From NCBI GenBank assembly GCA_018696595.1, contig JABHQW010000002.1, positions 38,420-102,419 on the forward strand: a DNA stretch of 64,000 nt. Direction: 5' to 3'. This stretch comes from Candidatus Woesearchaeota archaeon. GTDB lineage: Archaea; Nanobdellota; Nanobdellia; Woesearchaeales; GW2011-AR9. The position numbers were made by a program, and so were the translations under genes. Of the stretch, positions 36,199 through 44,437 are shown one piece after another. How positions within the stretch are numbered: position 1 is the stretch's first letter; every line of letters starts with the position of its first letter. The notes beneath the pieces are model-generated. The model did no database searches. It was not told the DNA's origin and saw only the letters and a program-made list of their open reading frames with translations.

Positions 36199-38532
36199 GT
36201 GGTGAGAAACAAATTAGACAAAATAATACAACTATTAATCCCTCCCTCATTAGTTCTCCTTCTTGTTGTTACTATCATTGAACTTTTTTATGGTGTTGGT
36301 AAATCTATGTCAATATTTATTGATATTTTTGATGTCTATGTGATTATTATTTTTGCTATTGATTTGTATTACCGATGGTTTGAAACTCCACGCTTTTGGC
36401 CTTATATTAAAAAACACATTCTTGATATTATTGCTACTATCCCTTTCAACTTAATTTTTTTAGGAATTGAAGCACTCGCTTTAATAAGAGCGTTAAGGGG
36501 TGTTCGTATTATTGCTAGAATTGTTAAGTTTGCACGATTTGCACGTTATGGTCGTTTATTAAGATTATTAAGATTTGGTGCAAGAGCACCGAGATTTATT
36601 AGGGTAAGAAAGCAAGTAAAAAAAGGTAAAATTCGTAAAGTTCAACCGCACGAAAAAGAGTTGAAGAAAACATTGAGTTTTAAAGTAATCCTCCTAATCA
36701 CAATTAACTCCATTATGGGTACTGGTATTTGGTTCCTTACTTCTGCAGGAGCTAAACATGCTGGTCCCGCTTCTTTAGTTTCTTGGGGTGTATTGTCTTT
36801 AATTTCTGTTTATATTGCGATGTGTTTTGGAGAATTAGTTTCTATGTTTCCAAAAGCAGGTGGCGTTTATGAGTTTGCTAAACAAGCTTACGGTAGATTT
36901 TGGAGTTTCGTTATTGGTTGGACCACATCTATTGCTGGAAGTGTAACTATTGCTATGCTTCTTTTAGGTGCGTTACAATATCTTATTCCTCTTAAATATT
37001 CTTTTACCTATATCCCTATTGCAATTTTTTTAATTATTGCTTTCAGTTATGTAGCATTTAGGGGGATGCAAACTTCAACCGTTGTTTTGGTGACCTTTGC
37101 AATCATTACTTTAACTGCGGTTGTTTCAATTATCATTCCTGGATTTATTAATTTTAAACCGGGCAATCTTGATCCTTTCTTTGTTTTCCCAGCAATGAAT
37201 GTCTTGTTAGCAATATTCTTTATTGCGGAAACTTTCTTTGGTTGGGAAAGTGCTATTTTTCTTTCTGCTGAAACAAAAAATCCTTCTAAAATAATGCCTA
37301 AGGCGTTAATTTACGGAACTCTTATTATTGCGGTTTTGTCTTTCTTTTTAGCTCTTACAGCTATGGGTACTATTCCCTGGGCAGAATTTTCAGAATCTGT
37401 AGCACCACTAAAAGATTTAGGAAGCGTCCATTTTGGAAATATTGGGGGGATAATCTTTGCAATATTGATTTTTATTTCTGTAATTGGTGCTACTGCAGGT
37501 TGGATTGTAACTGCACCAAGATTATTAATGTCTATTGCTGAAGATAAATTATTTTTCACTCAATTTGCAAAAATTCATCCCAAACATAAAAGCCCTTACG
37601 TTTCAATAATTTTTCAAGTTTTAGTTGTTTCAACTTTAGTTATTGTTGGGGCTGGTTCGTATGAAACTTTATTGCATATGCTAATTCCTTTAATTTTGGT
37701 TGTCTATTCTGCTGTCTTGTTAAGTCTCGTTATTTTACGTTTTAAAAGACCAGAATTAAAACGACCTTACAAAGTTATTTTTGGAAAAGTTGGCCCTCTT
37801 ATCACGATGCTGTTTATGGTTTTTCTATTAATAATGTTTATTAAAGAAACTCATAGTGCTTTTGACATCTTGAGGATTTCTGCTGGTTTAGTTGCTTTTG
37901 GTATCCCTGCTTATTTCGCAATTGAATTATTTTATGATAAGAAATATGTTACTCTTAGAAGAAATTTGATGGCTAAGTTATCACATCATTATAATAAATT
38001 TCCTTTAACTAAAATGACATTTAATAAAATAATTTCTTTAGTTGGACCATTTAATAAGAAATCTTCTCTTATGGTTTATAATTCTCCAATGGGGGCTTTT
38101 ACTCAAAAAATTGTTAAATCTAAAATTCCTTTCCGTAAAATAATTATTGCCAATCAGTCAAAAGAAGAAATTAAAGTTTTCAAAGAAAAAATTTCTTCTG
38201 AAAATAGAAAACATATTGGTGTGCATTTGTTGAGAAAATTAAGTGTCCCTGTAAATGTGGGGAAAGTAAATGCTTTTGTTTCATTTAATAGTTTAGGACA
38301 TGTTAAAGACGTAGCTGGGTTTGTTCACAATGTAAAGAAAGTTCTTAATAAAAAAGGCAAGTTCTGTTTTTATGTTAAAAACAATTTTCTGAATATGACT
38401 CCTAATGCTTTATTAGTTGAAGATAAGAAAAAGATGCTGGCTTTGTTTAAGAAAGAAAAATTAGTGGTAACTTATAACAAAAAAAGAAGATTGTTTAAGA
38501 CAGAAATATTTATTTGTGGTAAAAAAGTTTAA
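36199..38532 (+). CDS. Voltage-sensor domain + APC permease + degenerate methyltransferase-like domain (triple fusion)
   Basis: S2 IIFAIDLYYRW, S3 HILDIIATIPF, S4 RALRGVRIIARIVKFARFARYGRLLRLLR; APC motifs INSIMGTGIW, PKAGGVY, FFGWESAIFLSAE; MTase-fold tail. Confidence 0.88.
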   Translation: MVRNKLDKIIQLLIPPSLVLLLVVTIIELFYGVGKSMSIFIDIFDVYVIIIFAIDLYYRWFETPRFWPYIKKHILDIIATIPFNLIFLGIEALALIRALRGVRIIARIVKFARFARYGRLLRLLRFGARAPRFIRVRKQVKKGKIRKVQPHEKELKKTLSFKVILLITINSIMGTGIWFLTSAGAKHAGPASLVSWGVLSLISVYIAMCFGELVSMFPKAGGVYEFAKQAYGRFWSFVIGWTTSIAGSVTIAMLLLGALQYLIPLKYSFTYIPIAIFLIIAFSYVAFRGMQTSTVVLVTFAIITLTAVVSIIIPGFINFKPGNLDPFFVFPAMNVLLAIFFIAETFFGWESAIFLSAETKNPSKIMPKALIYGTLIIAVLSFFLALTAMGTIPWAEFSESVAPLKDLGSVHFGNIGGIIFAILIFISVIGATAGWIVTAPRLLMSIAEDKLFFTQFAKIHPKHKSPYVSIIFQVLVVSTLVIVGAGSYETLLHMLIPLILVVYSAVLLSLVILRFKRPELKRPYKVIFGKVGPLITMLFMVFLLIMFIKETHSAFDILRISAGLVAFGIPAYFAIELFYDKKYVTLRRNLMAKLSHHYNKFPLTKMTFNKIISLVGPFNKKSSLMVYNSPMGAFTQKIVKSKIPFRKIIIANQSKEEIKVFKEKISSENRKHIGVHLLRKLSVPVNVGKVNAFVSFNSLGHVKDVAGFVHNVKKVLNKKGKFCFYVKNNFLNMTPNALLVEDKKKMLALFKKEKLVVTYNKKRRLFKTEIFICGKKV

Positions 38533-38605: not shown

Positions 38606-38956
38606 ATGGTAAAATTAACTTATATTGAAAAAAAAGGATTTACTCAGAACAACCGTTATGACGCTGGAGTTCAAGCTATTAAGGCTACTGGTGTATTGGA
38701 AGCTTTTTATAATTTATTGCCTAGTCATGATCAAAGAGGATTTAATATTTCTTCTGGTATCGTTGATACTCTCCCTTCTTACTTTGCGGTTCCTATCAAA
38801 CGAAAATTAGAAAAAAGTTTTAACCCTAATATACATCCGCAGGATCCAGTAATTGCGGTTGCTGATTACAGATTAAATGAAAGAATTAATCTCAATCCAG
38901 AAGAAAACCAAACTCTTGATAAATTAATGGAAGGAATAAGTATGGTGCCATTGTAA
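38606..38956 (+). CDS. Hypothetical protein
   Basis: 116-aa ORF with GGAGGGA RBS and upstream TTTATAAA. Confidence 0.6.
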   Translation: MVKLTYIEKKGFTQNNRYDAGVQAIKATGVLEAFYNLLPSHDQRGFNISSGIVDTLPSYFAVPIKRKLEKSFNPNIHPQDPVIAVADYRLNERINLNPEENQTLDKLMEGISMVPL

Positions 38957-38964
38957 TCTTTCAT

Positions 38965-39543
38965 CTACTTTTTATTTTTGTTTTTCTTCAAATTTCTTTT
39001 CTCTAGAACTTTTGTATGTTTCTTCTGATACTCTGGTTTGTGTCTATGAACATGATGTGTGACTTTTGTAAACAATCTTGATTTGGTAACAATTCTTAAT
39101 GATCGAGCAGCTAATCTAATATACTTAGCAATTTTCTGACTTCTACTTAAGGCAGAGATGCCTTTTCTTGCTTCTAATGACTCATGTAATATTGCTTGAC
39201 TAATGGTGTATTTTCCAGCAGTTGCAGCGACTCGCCAAACTCGACTTACAATAGTAAATACAATCACTAGGGGGACAACTGCGACTATATCTAACCAGTA
39301 ACTTTTGAAAAAGAATTTCCAGGTTTTAGCTTTGATTGCCAAGAAGATCAAATCAATGACAAAGATGACGATGATAAAGTAATCTAATGCCACAATCGGT
39401 GTATGGTAAAGTTCAACAAAATGATGAACTGATTCGTTAAAGTACCCGATGACTTCTAAAACGATAATTATCAGCAAACCCACAATCGCTGCTGGAATTA
39501 ACTTGGCATTCCAATGTTCAACCTTTTCCCAAAAATTATTCAT
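38965..39543 (-). CDS. Stand-alone voltage-sensor-like (S1-S4) membrane protein with no pore domain
   Basis: Likely start MNNFWEK (39543); S2 IIVIFVIDLIF, S3 YWLDIVAVVP, basic KIAKYIRLAARSLRIVTKSR segment, His/Lys-rich tail. Confidence 0.8.
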   Translation of the reverse strand: MNNFWEKVEHWNAKLIPAAIVGLLIIIVLEVIGYFNESVHHFVELYHTPIVALDYFIIVIFVIDLIFLAIKAKTWKFFFKSYWLDIVAVVPLVIVFTIVSRVWRVAATAGKYTISQAILHESLEARKGISALSRSQKIAKYIRLAARSLRIVTKSRLFTKVTHHVHRHKPEYQKKHTKVLEKRNLKKNKNKK

Positions 39544-39636
39544 AGAAGAAAGTAATTTTTTTAGGTATATAAATTTTGTCCTGTGATAACTTTTATAAAT
39601 GATAGAACAATAGTTAACTATGAAAAGAGGCATGAG
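39544..39636. promoter_or_regulatory. Divergent promoter region shared by the VSD-only gene and APC paralog 3
   Basis: TATATAAA at about 39567 and TTTATAAA at about 39592; AAGAGG RBS before the ATG at 39637. Confidence 0.5.
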
Positions 39637-41712
39637 ATGAAACTTAAACAGTTCTGGCAGTATTTAGTTACGGATAGTTCTAAGAAGAAGAAAGTTACAA
39701 CTCTAACTTCTAATAAATCTATTTCTACTAAAACTGTAACTGTAAAAAGGCATCAATCTACCGCAAAAAGACTTCTCTCATCACCGGTTGTACTATTTAT
39801 TTTAATTAACTCTATCTTAGGGAGCTCATTATTTTACCTCCCCAGCCTAGGAGTTGTTTCTTCTGGGGCGGCATCACTTATTGCTTGGATTCTATTATTT
39901 GCTCTTTCAACATTTATGATGCTTTACGTTTCTGAATTAATTACTTTACATCCTACCTCAGGTGGAACTTACGAGTTCTGTAAACGAGCTTACGGAAGAC
40001 AAATCTCTTTTTTTGCTGGCTGGATTATTTGGATTGCTGGAAATTTCGGAATGGCTCTTAATGTAGTGGCGGCTTCTGAATACTTTATCCCAGATACTTA
40101 TTCTTACTACTTCATTTTACGACTAGTTTTTGCAGCAATCTGGATTCTTGTTCTTAACTTTATGGCTTTTAGAGGAATAGATGCGGGAGCAACAATGTTA
40201 GTTGTTTTCGGAATTTTAACTGTGGTTGTAGTGATTGCAATGATCTTACCTTCTTTCATTGACATTCCTACTTTGTTTCAAGGAAGTTTAACCAGCCCAT
40301 TTCAATTAGAAATGATGCAACCTTTCTTCCGTCATACTGGATTAGGAATATTTAGTTTCTTACTTCTCTCGGTTTTCTTAATCGCGGAAGCATTCTTTGG
40401 TTTTGAAACAGTAAGTTATATGGCTAACGAAGTTAAAGATAAAAAGAATTTACCAAAAATAATGATTTCTGCAATGGTCATTTGTGGTGTTATCATGACG
40501 ATTTATCTGTTAAGTTCGTTGGGGACAGTTTCTTATCATGATTATGTTAGTGATGCTCGGCCTTGGGCAGTACAGGCATTAAACAATATGGGCAGTTTAG
40601 GACAGAACTTTGTTGTTTTTGGTATGTACCTAGTAATTATTGGTGCGGCAGCAGCGTGGCCAATTGCTAGTTCAAGATTGATTAGGGCGATGTCTAGCGA
40701 TAAATTGTTTTTGAAACATTTCTCAAAGTTACATCCAAAACACAAATCTCCTTATCGTGCAGTTTATTTTCAAACAATCATAATTTTCTTATTTGCTTGG
40801 TTTATTTTTCGTGGATATATTGTTAAATGGGGTGATCCATATCGGACCATTTACTTAATCTACTTATTACTAAGTTTAATTGTACTATCACTTGTCCTTT
40901 TTGCAGTTCCTATCTTGAGGAAGAAAGAAGCACATTTGAAAAGAACATTTAAGGCGCCATTACCTTGGCTTGGTCCAATATTCTTTGTTGGTCTTTTTGT
41001 TTTCATGATTATTAATTGGATCAGAATTGAAGGTGGTGTAGCAACGTCTGTAATTTTAATGGCAGGGTCATTTGTTGTTTTAGGAATTCCATTTTATTTC
41101 TTAGTGGAAATGTTTTACAATCCTAAGGCTATCATCTCAGTTAATGAAAGGTTATCTTATTTTGTAGTTATTGGAGAAAAATTATTTTTTCCTTTTACTA
41201 TTAGAAACAGATTGATTAAAGACCTAAAAACTTTGCGAGGGAAGTCTGTTTTAGAGTATGGTTGTTCTTTCGGAACACTAACTCGGAAGTTGGCAAAGAA
41301 AGTTACTTCTACTGGAAAAATTTACGCGACAGATTTATCTTTACACAAAGTTAAGATTGCTGATCAAAGAACAAAACGAATCAAGCATGTTTTTGTTCAT
41401 CATCATCCTCATTTGAGTGATTTCAAATTGAAATTGCCTCAGAAGGTTGATAACGTGCTCTCTGTGGGGATGTTATCTTACATGCAGAATCCTTTGAAAG
41501 TATTGTCAAGTTTAGCGAAGCGAGTAAAAAGGGGTGCTGACGTAGTATTCTTGGATTATGATAAATTCTTTTACTTTATTCCTAACGTGAAGTGGATTGA
41601 AGAAGATAAAAAGCTAATTGCTTTATTCAAACGAGCGGGTTACAAAGTCAAAGTAGAAAGAAAACGTGGTTTATTATGGACTTATGTTATTATTAGTGGA
41701 AAAAGAGTTTAA
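39637..41712 (+). CDS. APC-family permease fused to a C-terminal class I SAM-methyltransferase-like domain (paralog 3)
   Basis: INSILGSSLF, PTSGGTYEF, FFGFETVSYMANE, SRLIRAMSSD; VLEYGCSFG, IYATD, VDNVLS, VKRG. Confidence 0.9.
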   Translation: MKLKQFWQYLVTDSSKKKKVTTLTSNKSISTKTVTVKRHQSTAKRLLSSPVVLFILINSILGSSLFYLPSLGVVSSGAASLIAWILLFALSTFMMLYVSELITLHPTSGGTYEFCKRAYGRQISFFAGWIIWIAGNFGMALNVVAASEYFIPDTYSYYFILRLVFAAIWILVLNFMAFRGIDAGATMLVVFGILTVVVVIAMILPSFIDIPTLFQGSLTSPFQLEMMQPFFRHTGLGIFSFLLLSVFLIAEAFFGFETVSYMANEVKDKKNLPKIMISAMVICGVIMTIYLLSSLGTVSYHDYVSDARPWAVQALNNMGSLGQNFVVFGMYLVIIGAAAAWPIASSRLIRAMSSDKLFLKHFSKLHPKHKSPYRAVYFQTIIIFLFAWFIFRGYIVKWGDPYRTIYLIYLLLSLIVLSLVLFAVPILRKKEAHLKRTFKAPLPWLGPIFFVGLFVFMIINWIRIEGGVATSVILMAGSFVVLGIPFYFLVEMFYNPKAIISVNERLSYFVVIGEKLFFPFTIRNRLIKDLKTLRGKSVLEYGCSFGTLTRKLAKKVTSTGKIYATDLSLHKVKIADQRTKRIKHVFVHHHPHLSDFKLKLPQKVDNVLSVGMLSYMQNPLKVLSSLAKRVKRGADVVFLDYDKFFYFIPNVKWIEEDKKLIALFKRAGYKVKVERKRGLLWTYVIISGKRV

Positions 41713-43959: not shown

Positions 43960-44358
43960 TTATCTTTGGGCGTAAGCAAATGTTGCTTTCAAGGCCACAA
44001 TTATTGTTGCTGGCACAAACAATGTTAAGATTCCTGTCAACATATTAGTTATTGACGGAGCAACAGCATCAAAAATTCCCACTTGAATTCCTAAGAACGA
44101 GATTAATACTAATACTGTTCCACTAGTTAAGAATCCAGAAATCTCTTCAACTGCAATGTTTAGTAATCCTACTATAATCCCTAATAGAAATACTGTCCAT
44201 AAAATTTCTTTCTGGTAAGCACCAGTAAAACCCAATCCTAATACTATAGCAAGAAACAGCCCAATTAAGAATGACCAACTGCCAACTAAATTTCTACGGC
44301 AATAACTTCCTTCACATTTGACCTGTTTTGCAACTTTTTTTTTCTTTCTTTTAACCAT
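43960..44358 (-). CDS. Small four-TM hypothetical membrane protein
   Basis: ATG at 44358 after GAGGTGA; GSWSFLIGLFLAI..LGIIVGLLNI..E...FL pattern. Confidence 0.75.
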   Translation of the reverse strand: MVKRKKKKVAKQVKCEGSYCRRNLVGSWSFLIGLFLAIVLGLGFTGAYQKEILWTVFLLGIIVGLLNIAVEEISGFLTSGTVLVLISFLGIQVGIFDAVAPSITNMLTGILTLFVPATIIVALKATFAYAQR

Positions 44359-44437
44359 AAATTTCACCTCTTTTTCTCTAGAATTATTTTATGGTATAAA
44401 AAGTTTTATAAATTAGGTGCGTTTCTGCTAAAAGTAA

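What the first reader, a model, noticed from the sequence alone, without database searches (positions are those of the whole stretch)
38965..39543. Pore-less stand-alone voltage-sensor protein embedded in the permease cluster
Seen: S1-S3 similar to those of the neighbouring fusion (LIP..I..LL.I..LE; IFxIDL; xLDIxAxxP). S4 is split into SRVWRV and, about 35 aa later, KIAKYIRLAARSLRIVTKSR. Several His residues; divergent promoter shared with the VSD-less paralog 3. Known: Hv1 proton channels are VSD-only proteins. Inference: a trans-acting sensor subunit for paralogs 1 and 3, or an Hv-like proton conductor.
Basis: partly seen in the sequence, partly recalled or inferred. Interest (0 to 1): 0.7.

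Follow-up and report, generated by a model that had tools for sequence, protein, structure and literature searches.

The report
Pore-less voltage-sensor protein of DPANN archaea
A tiny archaeon carries an intact, strongly conserved gene for the voltage-sensing module of nerve-type ion channels with no channel pore attached; related archaea hold hundreds of such genes although reviews say prokaryotic voltage sensors always come with a pore, and it is not a dedicated partner of the neighbouring amino-acid permeases.

Summary
The gene is real: 38965-39543 (-) encodes a 192-aa membrane protein with the S1-S3 scaffold of a voltage-sensor domain (VSD). It keeps the whole charge-transfer signature (E30, D54-x6-F61-x2-D64, D85). 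A basic S4-like helix (137-156) follows a conserved, probably extracellular 35-residue hairpin that carries Q116/H120/E124. It is not a Kv pseudogene: 443 clusters of relatives are nearly all 150-250 aa, dN/dS is about 0.1, no pore remnant lies nearby, and no K-channel pore was found in the 97%-complete genome. The family was found only in MAGs labelled Woesearchaeota or Nanoarchaeota. Of 301 related genomes, 102 have the stand-alone VSD and 107 have the permease-methyltransferase, but only 23 have both. The two genes are adjacent only within the window's own family, and no neighbour is conserved across 49 loci. Hv1 membership also fails: there is no mid-S1 acid, and the RVWRV look-alike is not conserved. 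What the sensor controls is unresolved. I favour an autonomous sensor that itself passes H+/cations (about 0.3). The main rival is action in trans on another membrane module. One candidate is a 4-TM protein that is fused to a VSD in 18 other genomes. An earlier pass of this scan noted the same stretch, in this genome only.

The parts
38965..39543 (-). Complete CDS of the stand-alone voltage-sensor-like protein (192 aa plus stop; P0002)
   Evidence: Searches give the ORF. The start is fixed by alignment with homologues. dN/dS is 0.07-0.19 against five relatives.
39505..39537 (-). S0: N-terminal amphipathic helix (residues 3-13, FWEKVEHWNA), inferred to be cytoplasmic; E9 is kept in 86% of the family
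   Evidence: AF2 helix 3-35; conservation table; loop charges.
39445..39504 (-). S1 (residues 14-33) with the outer countercharge E30 (E/D in 93%). There is no other acidic residue in S1.
   Evidence: hhalign to regular sensors.
39343..39399 (-). S2 (residues 49-67) with D54, F61 and D64: the outer acid, the Phe cap and the inner acid of the charge-transfer centre, spaced 7 and 3
   Evidence: Translation. D54 is kept in 95%, F61 in 98% and D64 in 97% of the family. F-x-x-acid aligns with NavMs FIVE.
39244..39297 (-). S3 (residues 83-100) with W83, D85 and P91. It is preceded by the basic S2-S3 loop, which holds F78 (100% conserved).
   Evidence: D/E85 100%, P91 100%; the loop has net charge +4.4, so it lies inside.
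39139..39243 (-). Family-specific S3-S4 insertion (residues 101-135). It is predicted to be a helical hairpin outside the membrane. It holds the non-conserved RVWRV and the conserved Q116, H120, E121 and E124.
   Evidence: Translation. AF2 helices 92-110 and 115-133. Q116 is kept in 96% and H120 in 95%. The region is net acidic across the family. It is absent from the fused sensors.
39076..39138 (-). S4-like helix (residues 136-156) with basic residues at 137, 140, 143, 147, 150, 154 and 156
   Evidence: Translation. R147 is kept in 88% and R150 in 91% of the family, which averages 6.9 K+R in this segment. AF2 helix 136-154 is included in superpositions on solved VSDs that run to about residue 160.
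38968..39075 (-). Polybasic, His-rich C-terminal tail (residues 157-192), variable in length and sequence across the family, inferred to be cytoplasmic
   Evidence: net charge +11 here, +4.7 on average in the family.
39544..39636 (.). 93-bp divergent spacer to the third permease gene (ATG at 39637) with two TATA-like boxes. The box for the minus gene is centred about 27 nt before its ATG, which fits a leaderless or short-leader mRNA.
   Evidence: Read directly. The promoter assignment is inference from the usual archaeal TATA-to-start distance.

Best explanation
This is a working gene for a free-standing four-helix voltage-sensor domain, with the N-terminus and the C-terminus both inside the cell. 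It belongs to a large, unannotated family found so far only in DPANN archaea labelled Woesearchaeota or Nanoarchaeota. S1-S3 form the usual scaffold with its acidic countercharges and Phe cap. A basic S4-like helix would move through that scaffold when the membrane potential changes. A family-specific external hairpin between S3 and S4 carries an invariant Gln/His/Glu patch. That patch, with the His/Glu-rich S1-S2 loop, would sit at the mouth of the outer crevice. The protein works independently of the neighbouring permease-methyltransferase genes; their adjacency is inherited gene order within one family. Shown: homology of S0-S3, conservation, purifying selection, absence of a pore, and absence of co-conservation. 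Inferred: topology, S4 placement and voltage sensitivity. As the output, I think it most likely (about 0.3) that the sensor itself is the permeation path, a voltage-gated H+/cation leak like Hv1 or the isolated Shaker sensor, with the outer His/Glu patch acting as a proton or metal site. My odds for the parts are: identity as a VSD about 0.85, independence from the permeases about 0.8.
For: Homology: Pfam Ion_trans matches positions 9-124 only, E 1e-4; 94 of 147 members hit Ion_trans; hhalign to regular DPANN sensors gives 99.7%, E 4.7e-26 over residues 6-100. Signature residues are kept in 93-100% of 139 cluster representatives. The AF2 model has pLDDT 85 and pTM 0.73. Sixteen of its top 20 structural rows are VSDs, for example Kv4.2 at Z 9.4, rmsd 4.0 over 119 residues, and SLC9C1 at Z 8.8, rmsd 3.0 over 102. 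The family is stand-alone: 158 near homologues of 125-226 aa; 443 clusters whose best 150 are 87-351 aa; no longer forms found. dN/dS is 0.07-0.19. The own genome is 97% complete and has no Ion_trans_2 match and no Ion_trans pore match. Loop charges give N-in/C-in. Independence: 23 genomes have both genes, 79 have the VSD only and 84 have the permease only, out of 301; no neighbour family occurs in more than 8 of 49 loci. Precedent for conduction: the Shaker sensor cut free of its pore forms a proton-preferring cation channel (PMC5092046).
Against: The window protein scores below Pfam's cut-off (21.9-23.1 against 25 bits). Foldseek finds nothing below E 0.6. The Z values of 8-9 are in the range that unrelated helical bundles reach (TIP47 Z 9.1). 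The region after S3 does not align with regular S4 segments. Its basic residues are spaced 3-4-3-4, and many relatives have prolines in it. For conduction specifically: S1 is wholly hydrophobic apart from E30, S4 carries a full set of charges, and the vertebrate VSD-only protein TMEM266 is described as not forming an ion channel. Nothing here measures voltage dependence or flux.
Confidence: 0.55

Rival explanations
1. It is a trans-acting voltage sensor that docks onto a separately encoded membrane module and regulates it. The best candidate is a small 4-TM protein of no known family, not the permeases.
For: In this archaeal class, sensors are repeatedly fused to pore-less membrane modules. 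VSD-APC-methyltransferase fusions occur in about 21 genomes. A 4TM-VSD fusion occurs in 18 of 301 genomes, and 17 of those lack the stand-alone sensor. The free 4-TM gene is present in 238 of 301 genomes and twice in this genome, once 4.4 kb away at 43960-44367. In the S1-S3 tree, both kinds of fused sensor lie among stand-alone lineages.
Against: The 4-TM gene lies within 5 kb of the stand-alone sensor in only 1 of 49 loci. It also occurs in most genomes that lack the sensor. No conserved neighbour of any kind was found. The fused sensors lack the Q/H/E hairpin, so the free form has features of its own. The tree is weakly resolved (81 columns, no outgroup).
Confidence: 0.2
2. It is a dedicated sensor subunit for the neighbouring APC-methyltransferase permeases.
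For: It lies inside the permease cluster here, divergent to paralog 3. In the window's own family, 7 of the 9 genomes that hold both genes have them within 4 kb of each other. A paralogous permease carries a covalently fused sensor.
Against: 79 of 102 genomes with the sensor have no such permease, including 18 of 26 in the same family and 20 of 20 in family f4. The odds ratio is 0.40. The two genes are adjacent in 0 of 14 genomes outside the family. Orientation and neighbouring paralog vary. A 73%-identical relative keeps the same backbone (Carb_kinase, DUF5652, RimK) without any permease. The fusion sensor of the same genome is not its close relative.
Confidence: 0.07
3. It has the VSD fold but does not sense voltage. 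It could be a structural membrane anchor for the polybasic tail, or an external metal or ligand receptor built on the hairpin.
For: The post-S3 region is atypical and not alignable to regular S4. The best-conserved residues beyond the scaffold are the external Q116 and H120.
Against: All four countercharges, the Phe cap and four to five S4 basic positions are kept at about 90% or more across a family that has diverged to about 25% identity. That is hard to explain without charge pairing inside the bundle. The tail itself is not conserved.
Confidence: 0.15
4. It is a truncated Kv/Nav channel pseudogene, or half of a split channel whose pore is encoded elsewhere.
For: The only Pfam match is to the S1-S4 part of a 6-TM channel model.
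Against: Hundreds of relatives have the same short length. dN/dS is about 0.1. A convergent gene ends 8 bp after the stop codon, and a six-frame search finds no pore remnant nearby. The genome has no PF07885 match. Its only weak match to the pore part of PF00520 is a 117-aa protein without a GYG filter.
Confidence: 0.01

Closest known systems
Hv1 (HVCN1) voltage-gated proton channel
   Same: Both are S1-S4 only, with no pore domain. Both have a charge-transfer centre with a Phe and inner acids, and His/acidic residues on the outer face. This window's subclade even reads RVWRVA, like the Hv1 S4 motif RLWRVAR (the Hv1 motif is recalled from my own knowledge).
   Different: There is no acidic residue in mid S1: the position seven residues before E30 is Leu in 96% of the family. 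The RVWRV piece lies before the hairpin, not in S4, and is not conserved. S4 carries 6-7 charges rather than 3. There is no conserved coiled coil. Reviews state that Hv channels are not found in bacteria or archaea (PMC10377628, PMC13095418).
TMEM266 (vertebrate VSD-only protein)
   Same: It is a free-standing functional voltage sensor with no known effector and an extracellular Zn2+ site (PMC6392501, as summarised).
   Different: TMEM266 extends S4 into a dimerising coiled coil and is vertebrate-specific. The archaeal family has a variable polybasic tail and an S3-S4 hairpin insertion. No sequence relationship beyond the shared fold was seen.
Isolated Shaker voltage sensor (Shaker-iVSD, engineered)
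   Same: It is a regular sensor without its pore. It shows that such a module can by itself be a voltage-gated, proton-preferring cation channel (PMC5092046). The acid-Phe-acid spacing in S2 is the same (the Shaker numbering is from my own knowledge).
   Different: It is an artificial truncation, whereas the archaeal protein is a natural gene under selection with an added external hairpin.
Fused sensors: SLC9C1 (sperm Na+/H+ exchanger) and the neighbouring VSD-APC-methyltransferase protein (36199-38532)
   Same: Both are pore-less uses of a VSD on a transporter. The SLC9C1 sensor is among the best structural matches (Z 8.8, rmsd 3.0 over 102 residues). The neighbour shares S0-S3 at 24-26% identity.
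   Different: Those sensors are covalently attached, have a regular S4 and lack the Q/H/E hairpin. The stand-alone family is far more widespread than the fusion (102 against about 21 of 301 genomes) and forms separate lineages.
Prokaryotic 6-TM channels (KvAP, NavAb/NavMs)
   Same: S1-S3 show weak profile similarity to NavMs (E 0.07). The FFKxYWLD motif at the S2-S3 turn resembles the Nav/Cav type (my own knowledge). The KvAP sensor is the top Foldseek row (E 0.6).
   Different: There is no S5-P-S6 pore in this protein, in the family or elsewhere in the genome.

Membership tests
Voltage-sensor domain superfamily (S1-S4 of Pfam Ion_trans PF00520) | Significant profile match to the S1-S4 part of the family model | tested here: inconclusive
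   The window protein scores 21.9-23.1 bits, E 5e-5 to 1e-4, below the 25-bit cut-off. However, 94 of 147 family members match (best 1.1e-8), and hhalign to regular DPANN sensors gives 99.7%.
Voltage-sensor domain superfamily (S1-S4 of Pfam Ion_trans PF00520) | Charge-transfer centre: aromatic cap and acid in S2, acid in S3, plus outer acids in S1 and S2 | tested here: met
   F61 98%, D64 97%, D/E85 100%, D54 95%, E/D30 93% across 139 representatives. The D54-x6-F61-x2-D64 spacing equals that of Shaker/Kv1.2 (my own knowledge).
Voltage-sensor domain superfamily (S1-S4 of Pfam Ion_trans PF00520) | S4 helix with four or more basic residues at every third position | tested here: inconclusive
   Basic residues sit at 134, 137, 140, 143, 147, 150 and 153/154, each kept in 63-94% of the family. 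The spacing is 3-3-3-4-3-3. The segment is not alignable to regular S4 by hhalign, and relatives often have prolines in it.
Voltage-sensor domain superfamily (S1-S4 of Pfam Ion_trans PF00520) | Four-helix bundle fold superposable on solved sensors | tested here: inconclusive
   Sixteen of the top 20 VIA rows are VSDs (Z 8.2-9.4, rmsd 3.0-4.8, 15-22% identity). Unrelated bundles reach the same Z, and Foldseek's best is E 0.6.
Voltage-sensor domain superfamily (S1-S4 of Pfam Ion_trans PF00520) | Gating charge movement with voltage | not testable with these tools
   This needs electrophysiology or voltage-clamp fluorometry.
Hv1 voltage-gated proton channel | S1-S4 only, without a pore domain | tested here: met
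Hv1 voltage-gated proton channel | Acidic selectivity residue in the middle of S1 (human D112) | tested here: not met
   S1 (residues 14-33) has no acidic residue except the outer E30. Position 23 is Leu in 96% of the family. The register relative to Hv1 is my inference.
Hv1 voltage-gated proton channel | S4 signature RxWRxxR with an invariant Trp | tested here: not met
   RVWRVA at 101-106 lies outside the S4-like helix and varies in the family: position 101 is E/G/R, 103 is A/Y/L, 104 is L/E/R. Helix 136-156 has no Trp.
Hv1 voltage-gated proton channel | C-terminal coiled coil that dimerises the channel | tested here: inconclusive
The tail is polybasic and variable in length and sequence. 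No oligomer prediction was made.
6-TM voltage-gated cation channel (Kv/Nav), as a truncated or split member | S5-P-S6 pore domain in the same gene, as a nearby remnant, or elsewhere in the genome | tested here: not met
   No ORF and no six-frame match lies downstream. There is no PF07885 match and no credible PF00520 pore match in the 97%-complete genome.
Dedicated subunit of the APC-methyltransferase permeases (proposed system) | Co-occurrence and linkage with the permease genes across genomes | tested here: not met
   23 genomes have both, 79 the sensor only and 84 the permease only, of 301; odds ratio 0.40. Adjacency occurs only in family f1. None of the 40 broadly sampled loci has a permease within 5 kb.

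The most novel reading that the evidence does not exclude
This is the first natural prokaryotic voltage-sensor-only protein family. It would be a minimal voltage-gated proton/cation conductance made by S1-S4 alone, which arose independently of eukaryotic Hv1. It may also represent the free-living sensor module from which the fused forms of these archaea were assembled (VSD-permease and 4TM-VSD).
Probability: 0.25. Interest if true: 0.85.

Novelty: new variant of a known kind. Interest (0 to 1): 0.62.

Why it matters
Two recent reviews state that every known prokaryotic voltage sensor comes with a pore domain and that VSD-only proteins arose in eukaryotes (PMC10377628, PMC13095418). A large, conserved family of free-standing sensors in genome-reduced archaea contradicts that. 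It gives the modular-origin idea of voltage-gated channels a living example of the sensor on its own. It also offers a 160-190-residue natural VSD for biophysics, which can be tested directly by expression and recording. With the VSD-permease and 4TM-VSD fusions, it suggests that these archaea use voltage sensors widely on non-channel membrane proteins.

Tried and rejected
1. Complex prediction of the sensor (residues 1-165) with the APC domain of paralog 3 (residues 40-505) gave ipSAE 0.00 in both runs. That is no verdict, and I do not use it either way.
2. Foldseek against the PDB with both models found nothing at E <= 0.001.
3. A phmmer search of the single protein against PDB sequences gave only noise.
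4. A search for longer, fused relatives of this subfamily found none. That is weak evidence, as the tool itself notes.
5. The hit to the pore half of Ion_trans at contig 7 is a 117-aa two-helix protein without a selectivity filter (E 0.006). I rejected it as a pore partner.
6. A look-up of ten distant cluster representatives returned no organism names.
7. The scan of named genomes failed with the most diverse alignment and was repeated with the closer one.
8. The 4-TM module has no Pfam or PDB match.
9. The literature searches found no paper describing this family. The library lacks most subscription journals, so an earlier description cannot be excluded.
10. I rejected the reading that SRVWRV is the first half of a split S4, because it is not conserved and directly continues S3.

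Full report
THE GENE. The minus-strand ORF 38965-39543 encodes 192 residues. A longer frame reaches 39633, but homologues begin at the Met of MNNFWEKVEH. A TATA-like box at 39566-39573 is centred about 27 nt before that ATG (the promoter assignment is inference). The gene is flanked by a convergent 116-aa gene that ends 8 bp after its stop codon. On the other side lies a divergent permease-methyltransferase gene, ATG at 39637, with its own TATA-like box at 39591-39599. The 9-kb cluster holds a RimB-like protease, RimK, two APC-permease/SAM-methyltransferase fusions and one VSD-APC-methyltransferase-like fusion. An NnrD-type Carb_kinase gene follows it.

WHAT IT IS. Pfam matches only Ion_trans, over profile positions 9-124 of 241, which is S1-S4 without the pore. 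The E-value is 1e-4 and the score is just below the curated cut-off. The family-level evidence is much stronger. Of 147 diverse members, 94 hit Ion_trans on their own (best 1.1e-8), and no other Pfam family is hit by more than one member. A profile-profile comparison with sensors that have a regular S4 gives 99.7% probability, E 4.7e-26, over residues 6-100. Those sensors were the neighbour's N-terminus and a second DPANN architecture.

Across 139 representatives of 50%-identity clusters, the classical functional positions are nearly invariant:
- E/D30 at the outer end of S1 (93%).
- D54 (95%), F61 (98%) and D64 (97%) in S2.
- D/E85 (100%) and P91 (100%) in S3.
The D-x6-F-x2-D spacing is that of the Shaker/Kv1.2 outer acid, Phe cap and inner acid (my own knowledge).

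After S3 the protein departs from regular sensors. Residues 101-135 are an insertion, net acidic in the family, with Q116 (96%) and H120 (95%) plus E121/E124. Then comes a basic helix, K137/K140/R143/R147/R150/K154/R156 here. The family averages 6.9 Lys+Arg in this segment, and R147 and R150 are kept in about 90%.

Loop charges support an N-in, four-helix, C-in topology, which is inference. The N-terminus is +1.4, the S1-S2 loop -0.9, the S2-S3 loop +4.4, the insertion -1.5 and the tail +4.7.

STRUCTURE. With a shallow alignment AF2 gave pLDDT 69. With 147 diverse sequences it gave pLDDT 85 and pTM 0.73, with helices at 3-35, 47-71, 83-89/92-110, 115-133 and 136-154. Foldseek found nothing significant; its best row was the KvAP sensor at E 0.6. 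VIA-align put voltage sensors in 16 of the top 20 rows:
- Kv4.2: Z 9.4, rmsd 4.0 over 119 residues, 19% identity.
- Nav1.5: Z 8.9.
- CatSper: Z 8.9.
- SLC9C1: Z 8.8, rmsd 3.0 over 102 residues.
The aligned ranges reach about residue 160, so the basic helix takes the S4 position. Unrelated helical bundles score the same (TIP47 Z 9.1). The fold evidence is therefore consistent with a VSD but not decisive alone.

NOT A PSEUDOGENE OR A SPLIT CHANNEL. The evidence is:
- 158 near homologues of 125-226 aa.
- 443 clusters in an exhaustive search, whose best 150 are 87-351 aa.
- No longer forms.
- dN 0.1-0.35 with saturated dS, giving ratios of 0.07-0.19.
- No pore remnant in any frame near the gene.
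- No Ion_trans_2 match and no credible Ion_trans pore match in the whole 1.19-Mb, 97%-complete genome.
Named relatives are MAGs labelled Candidatus Woesearchaeota, Nanoarchaeota or Nanoarchaeia, with one Diapherotrites. Many third-party assemblies carry an 'uncultured Methanosarcinales' label that I take to be a placeholder.

THE PERMEASE-SUBUNIT IDEA. I searched the same 301 genomes of the phylum with the family profile and with paralog 1. I defined the stand-alone sensor as E <= 1e-17 in a frame of at most 330 aa. By that measure 102 genomes have the sensor and 107 have an APC-methyltransferase. Only 23 have both, 79 have the sensor alone and 84 have the permease alone; the odds ratio is 0.40. 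Genomes are related, so that figure is descriptive only. The tallies include two unpublished genomes, G242 and G243, and no conclusion depends on them.
- In the window's own family, 18 of 26 sensor-bearing genomes lack the permease.
- In family f4, 20 of 24 genomes have the sensor and none has the permease.
- In f15, 9 of 10 have the permease and none has the sensor.
- The two genes lie within 4 kb of each other in 7 of the 9 f1 genomes that have both, and in 0 of 14 genomes outside f1.
- Even in f1, the neighbour is sometimes paralog 1, sometimes the fusion and sometimes paralog 3. The orientation can be divergent, convergent or tandem.
- A 73%-identical relative keeps the backbone (Carb_kinase, DUF5652, RimK, RimB-like) with a Na/Ca exchanger gene and no permease.
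I clustered all ORFs within 5 kb of the sensor gene in 49 loci. No family occurred in more than 8 loci: DUF5652 in 8; the CCA-adding enzyme, NFACT, YdjM and RimK in 5 each. Permeases occurred only in the window and four close relatives. The complex prediction gave no verdict.

OTHER PORE-LESS SENSORS AND A PARTNER LEAD. The profile also hit two other architectures in related genomes. The first is the VSD-APC fusion, in about 21 genomes. The second is a set of 263-351-aa proteins in which a 130-residue 4-TM module of no known family precedes a sensor with a regular S4 and no pore. That fusion occurs in 18 of 301 genomes, and 17 of those lack the stand-alone sensor. The free 4-TM gene is in 238 of 301 genomes and twice in this one, once at 43960-44367. 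This is domain-fusion evidence for a possible partner. However, the free 4-TM gene lies near the sensor in only 1 of 49 loci, and it is common where the sensor is missing.
A tree of S1-S3 (81 columns, poorly resolved, midpoint-rooted) puts each fused type in one clade (SH-aLRT 99 each), among stand-alone lineages. The window's sensor groups with its orthologues, not with the fusion sensor next door. The neighbouring pair is therefore not a recent fusion or fission.

HOW IT PROBABLY WORKS. Shown: the scaffold, its conservation, its autonomy and the absence of a pore. Inferred: that the basic helix moves in the field. For the output I weigh three readings.
1. Conduction through the sensor itself, about 0.3. 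There is no effector domain and no conserved partner. The stand-alone form alone has gained a conserved His/Glu/Gln patch where the outer crevice opens. The Shaker sensor freed of its pore conducts protons and cations (PMC5092046).
2. Action in trans on another membrane module, about 0.25 in all. The 4-TM protein is the leading candidate, and the permeases are at most a lineage-specific target.
3. A non-conducting sensor or a scaffold that does not sense voltage.
Hv1 is the closest functional analogy, but the protein is not a member. It lacks a mid-S1 acid and a conserved S4 Trp motif. Its local RVWRVA look-alike is outside S4 and confined to close relatives.

NOVELTY. All database names for the family are 'hypothetical protein'. 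[quoted passage not shown] A 2024 review repeats the point about Hv channels. I found no paper on this family in the held library. An earlier pass of this scan had noted the same stretch in this genome; no look-alike in other genomes was on record.

Noticed in passing
L033-L037 (e.g. L034:615-1406, minus strand); 18 of 301 related genomes: A third pore-less sensor architecture. It has an N-terminal 4-TM module of no known family, followed by S1-S4 with a regular S4 (e.g. AKVARVARIARIARLMR) and no pore, in proteins of 263-351 aa. Pfam Ion_trans scores 30.5 bits, above the cut-off. Seventeen of the 18 genomes lack the stand-alone sensor.
   Followed up: partly
window 43960-44367 (-), and contig 4:76865-77194 (-) of the same genome (L168:1498-1887): Two free-standing copies of that 4-TM module (135 and 129 aa, motif GLLNI..E..FL). 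The family is present in 238 of 301 genomes of the phylum sample and has no Pfam or PDB match. It is a possible partner of the sensor by domain-fusion logic.
   Followed up: partly
L044, L055, L057, L066 (adjacent); also L007, L008, L038, L039: A small two-helix DUF5652 protein is the commonest neighbour of the stand-alone sensor gene (8 of 49 loci, directly adjacent in 4), in more than one archaeal family.
   Followed up: no
L003, L005, L042, L043, L046, L040: In several lineages the sensor gene sits tail-to-tail with the tRNA CCA-adding enzyme gene, with NFACT-R_1 and YdjM genes nearby. This gene order is conserved and unrelated to the permease cluster.
   Followed up: no
L040:1210-2222 (G129 contig 12): There is a tandem duplicate of the sensor gene. 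One copy is intact. The second changes frame just after S3 and loses the Q/H/E hairpin and S4, so it looks like a decaying paralog.
   Followed up: no
window 38606-38956 (+): A 116-aa soluble protein with no family match lies between the fusion permease and the sensor gene. An ORF of the same length follows RimK in a related genome (L038:1631-1981).
   Followed up: no
window 36199-38532 (+): The methyltransferase-like end of the VSD-bearing permease scores far lower on SAM-methyltransferase models than its two paralogs: best 20.8 bits, against 44 for paralog 1 and 44 for paralog 3. The domain looks degenerate.
   Followed up: no
P0161 (351 aa, metagenomic): One family member carries a C-terminal extension after the sensor, with an extra hydrophobic helix and a Cys-containing, probably external domain. 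It is the only longer form among the best 150 representatives.
   Followed up: no
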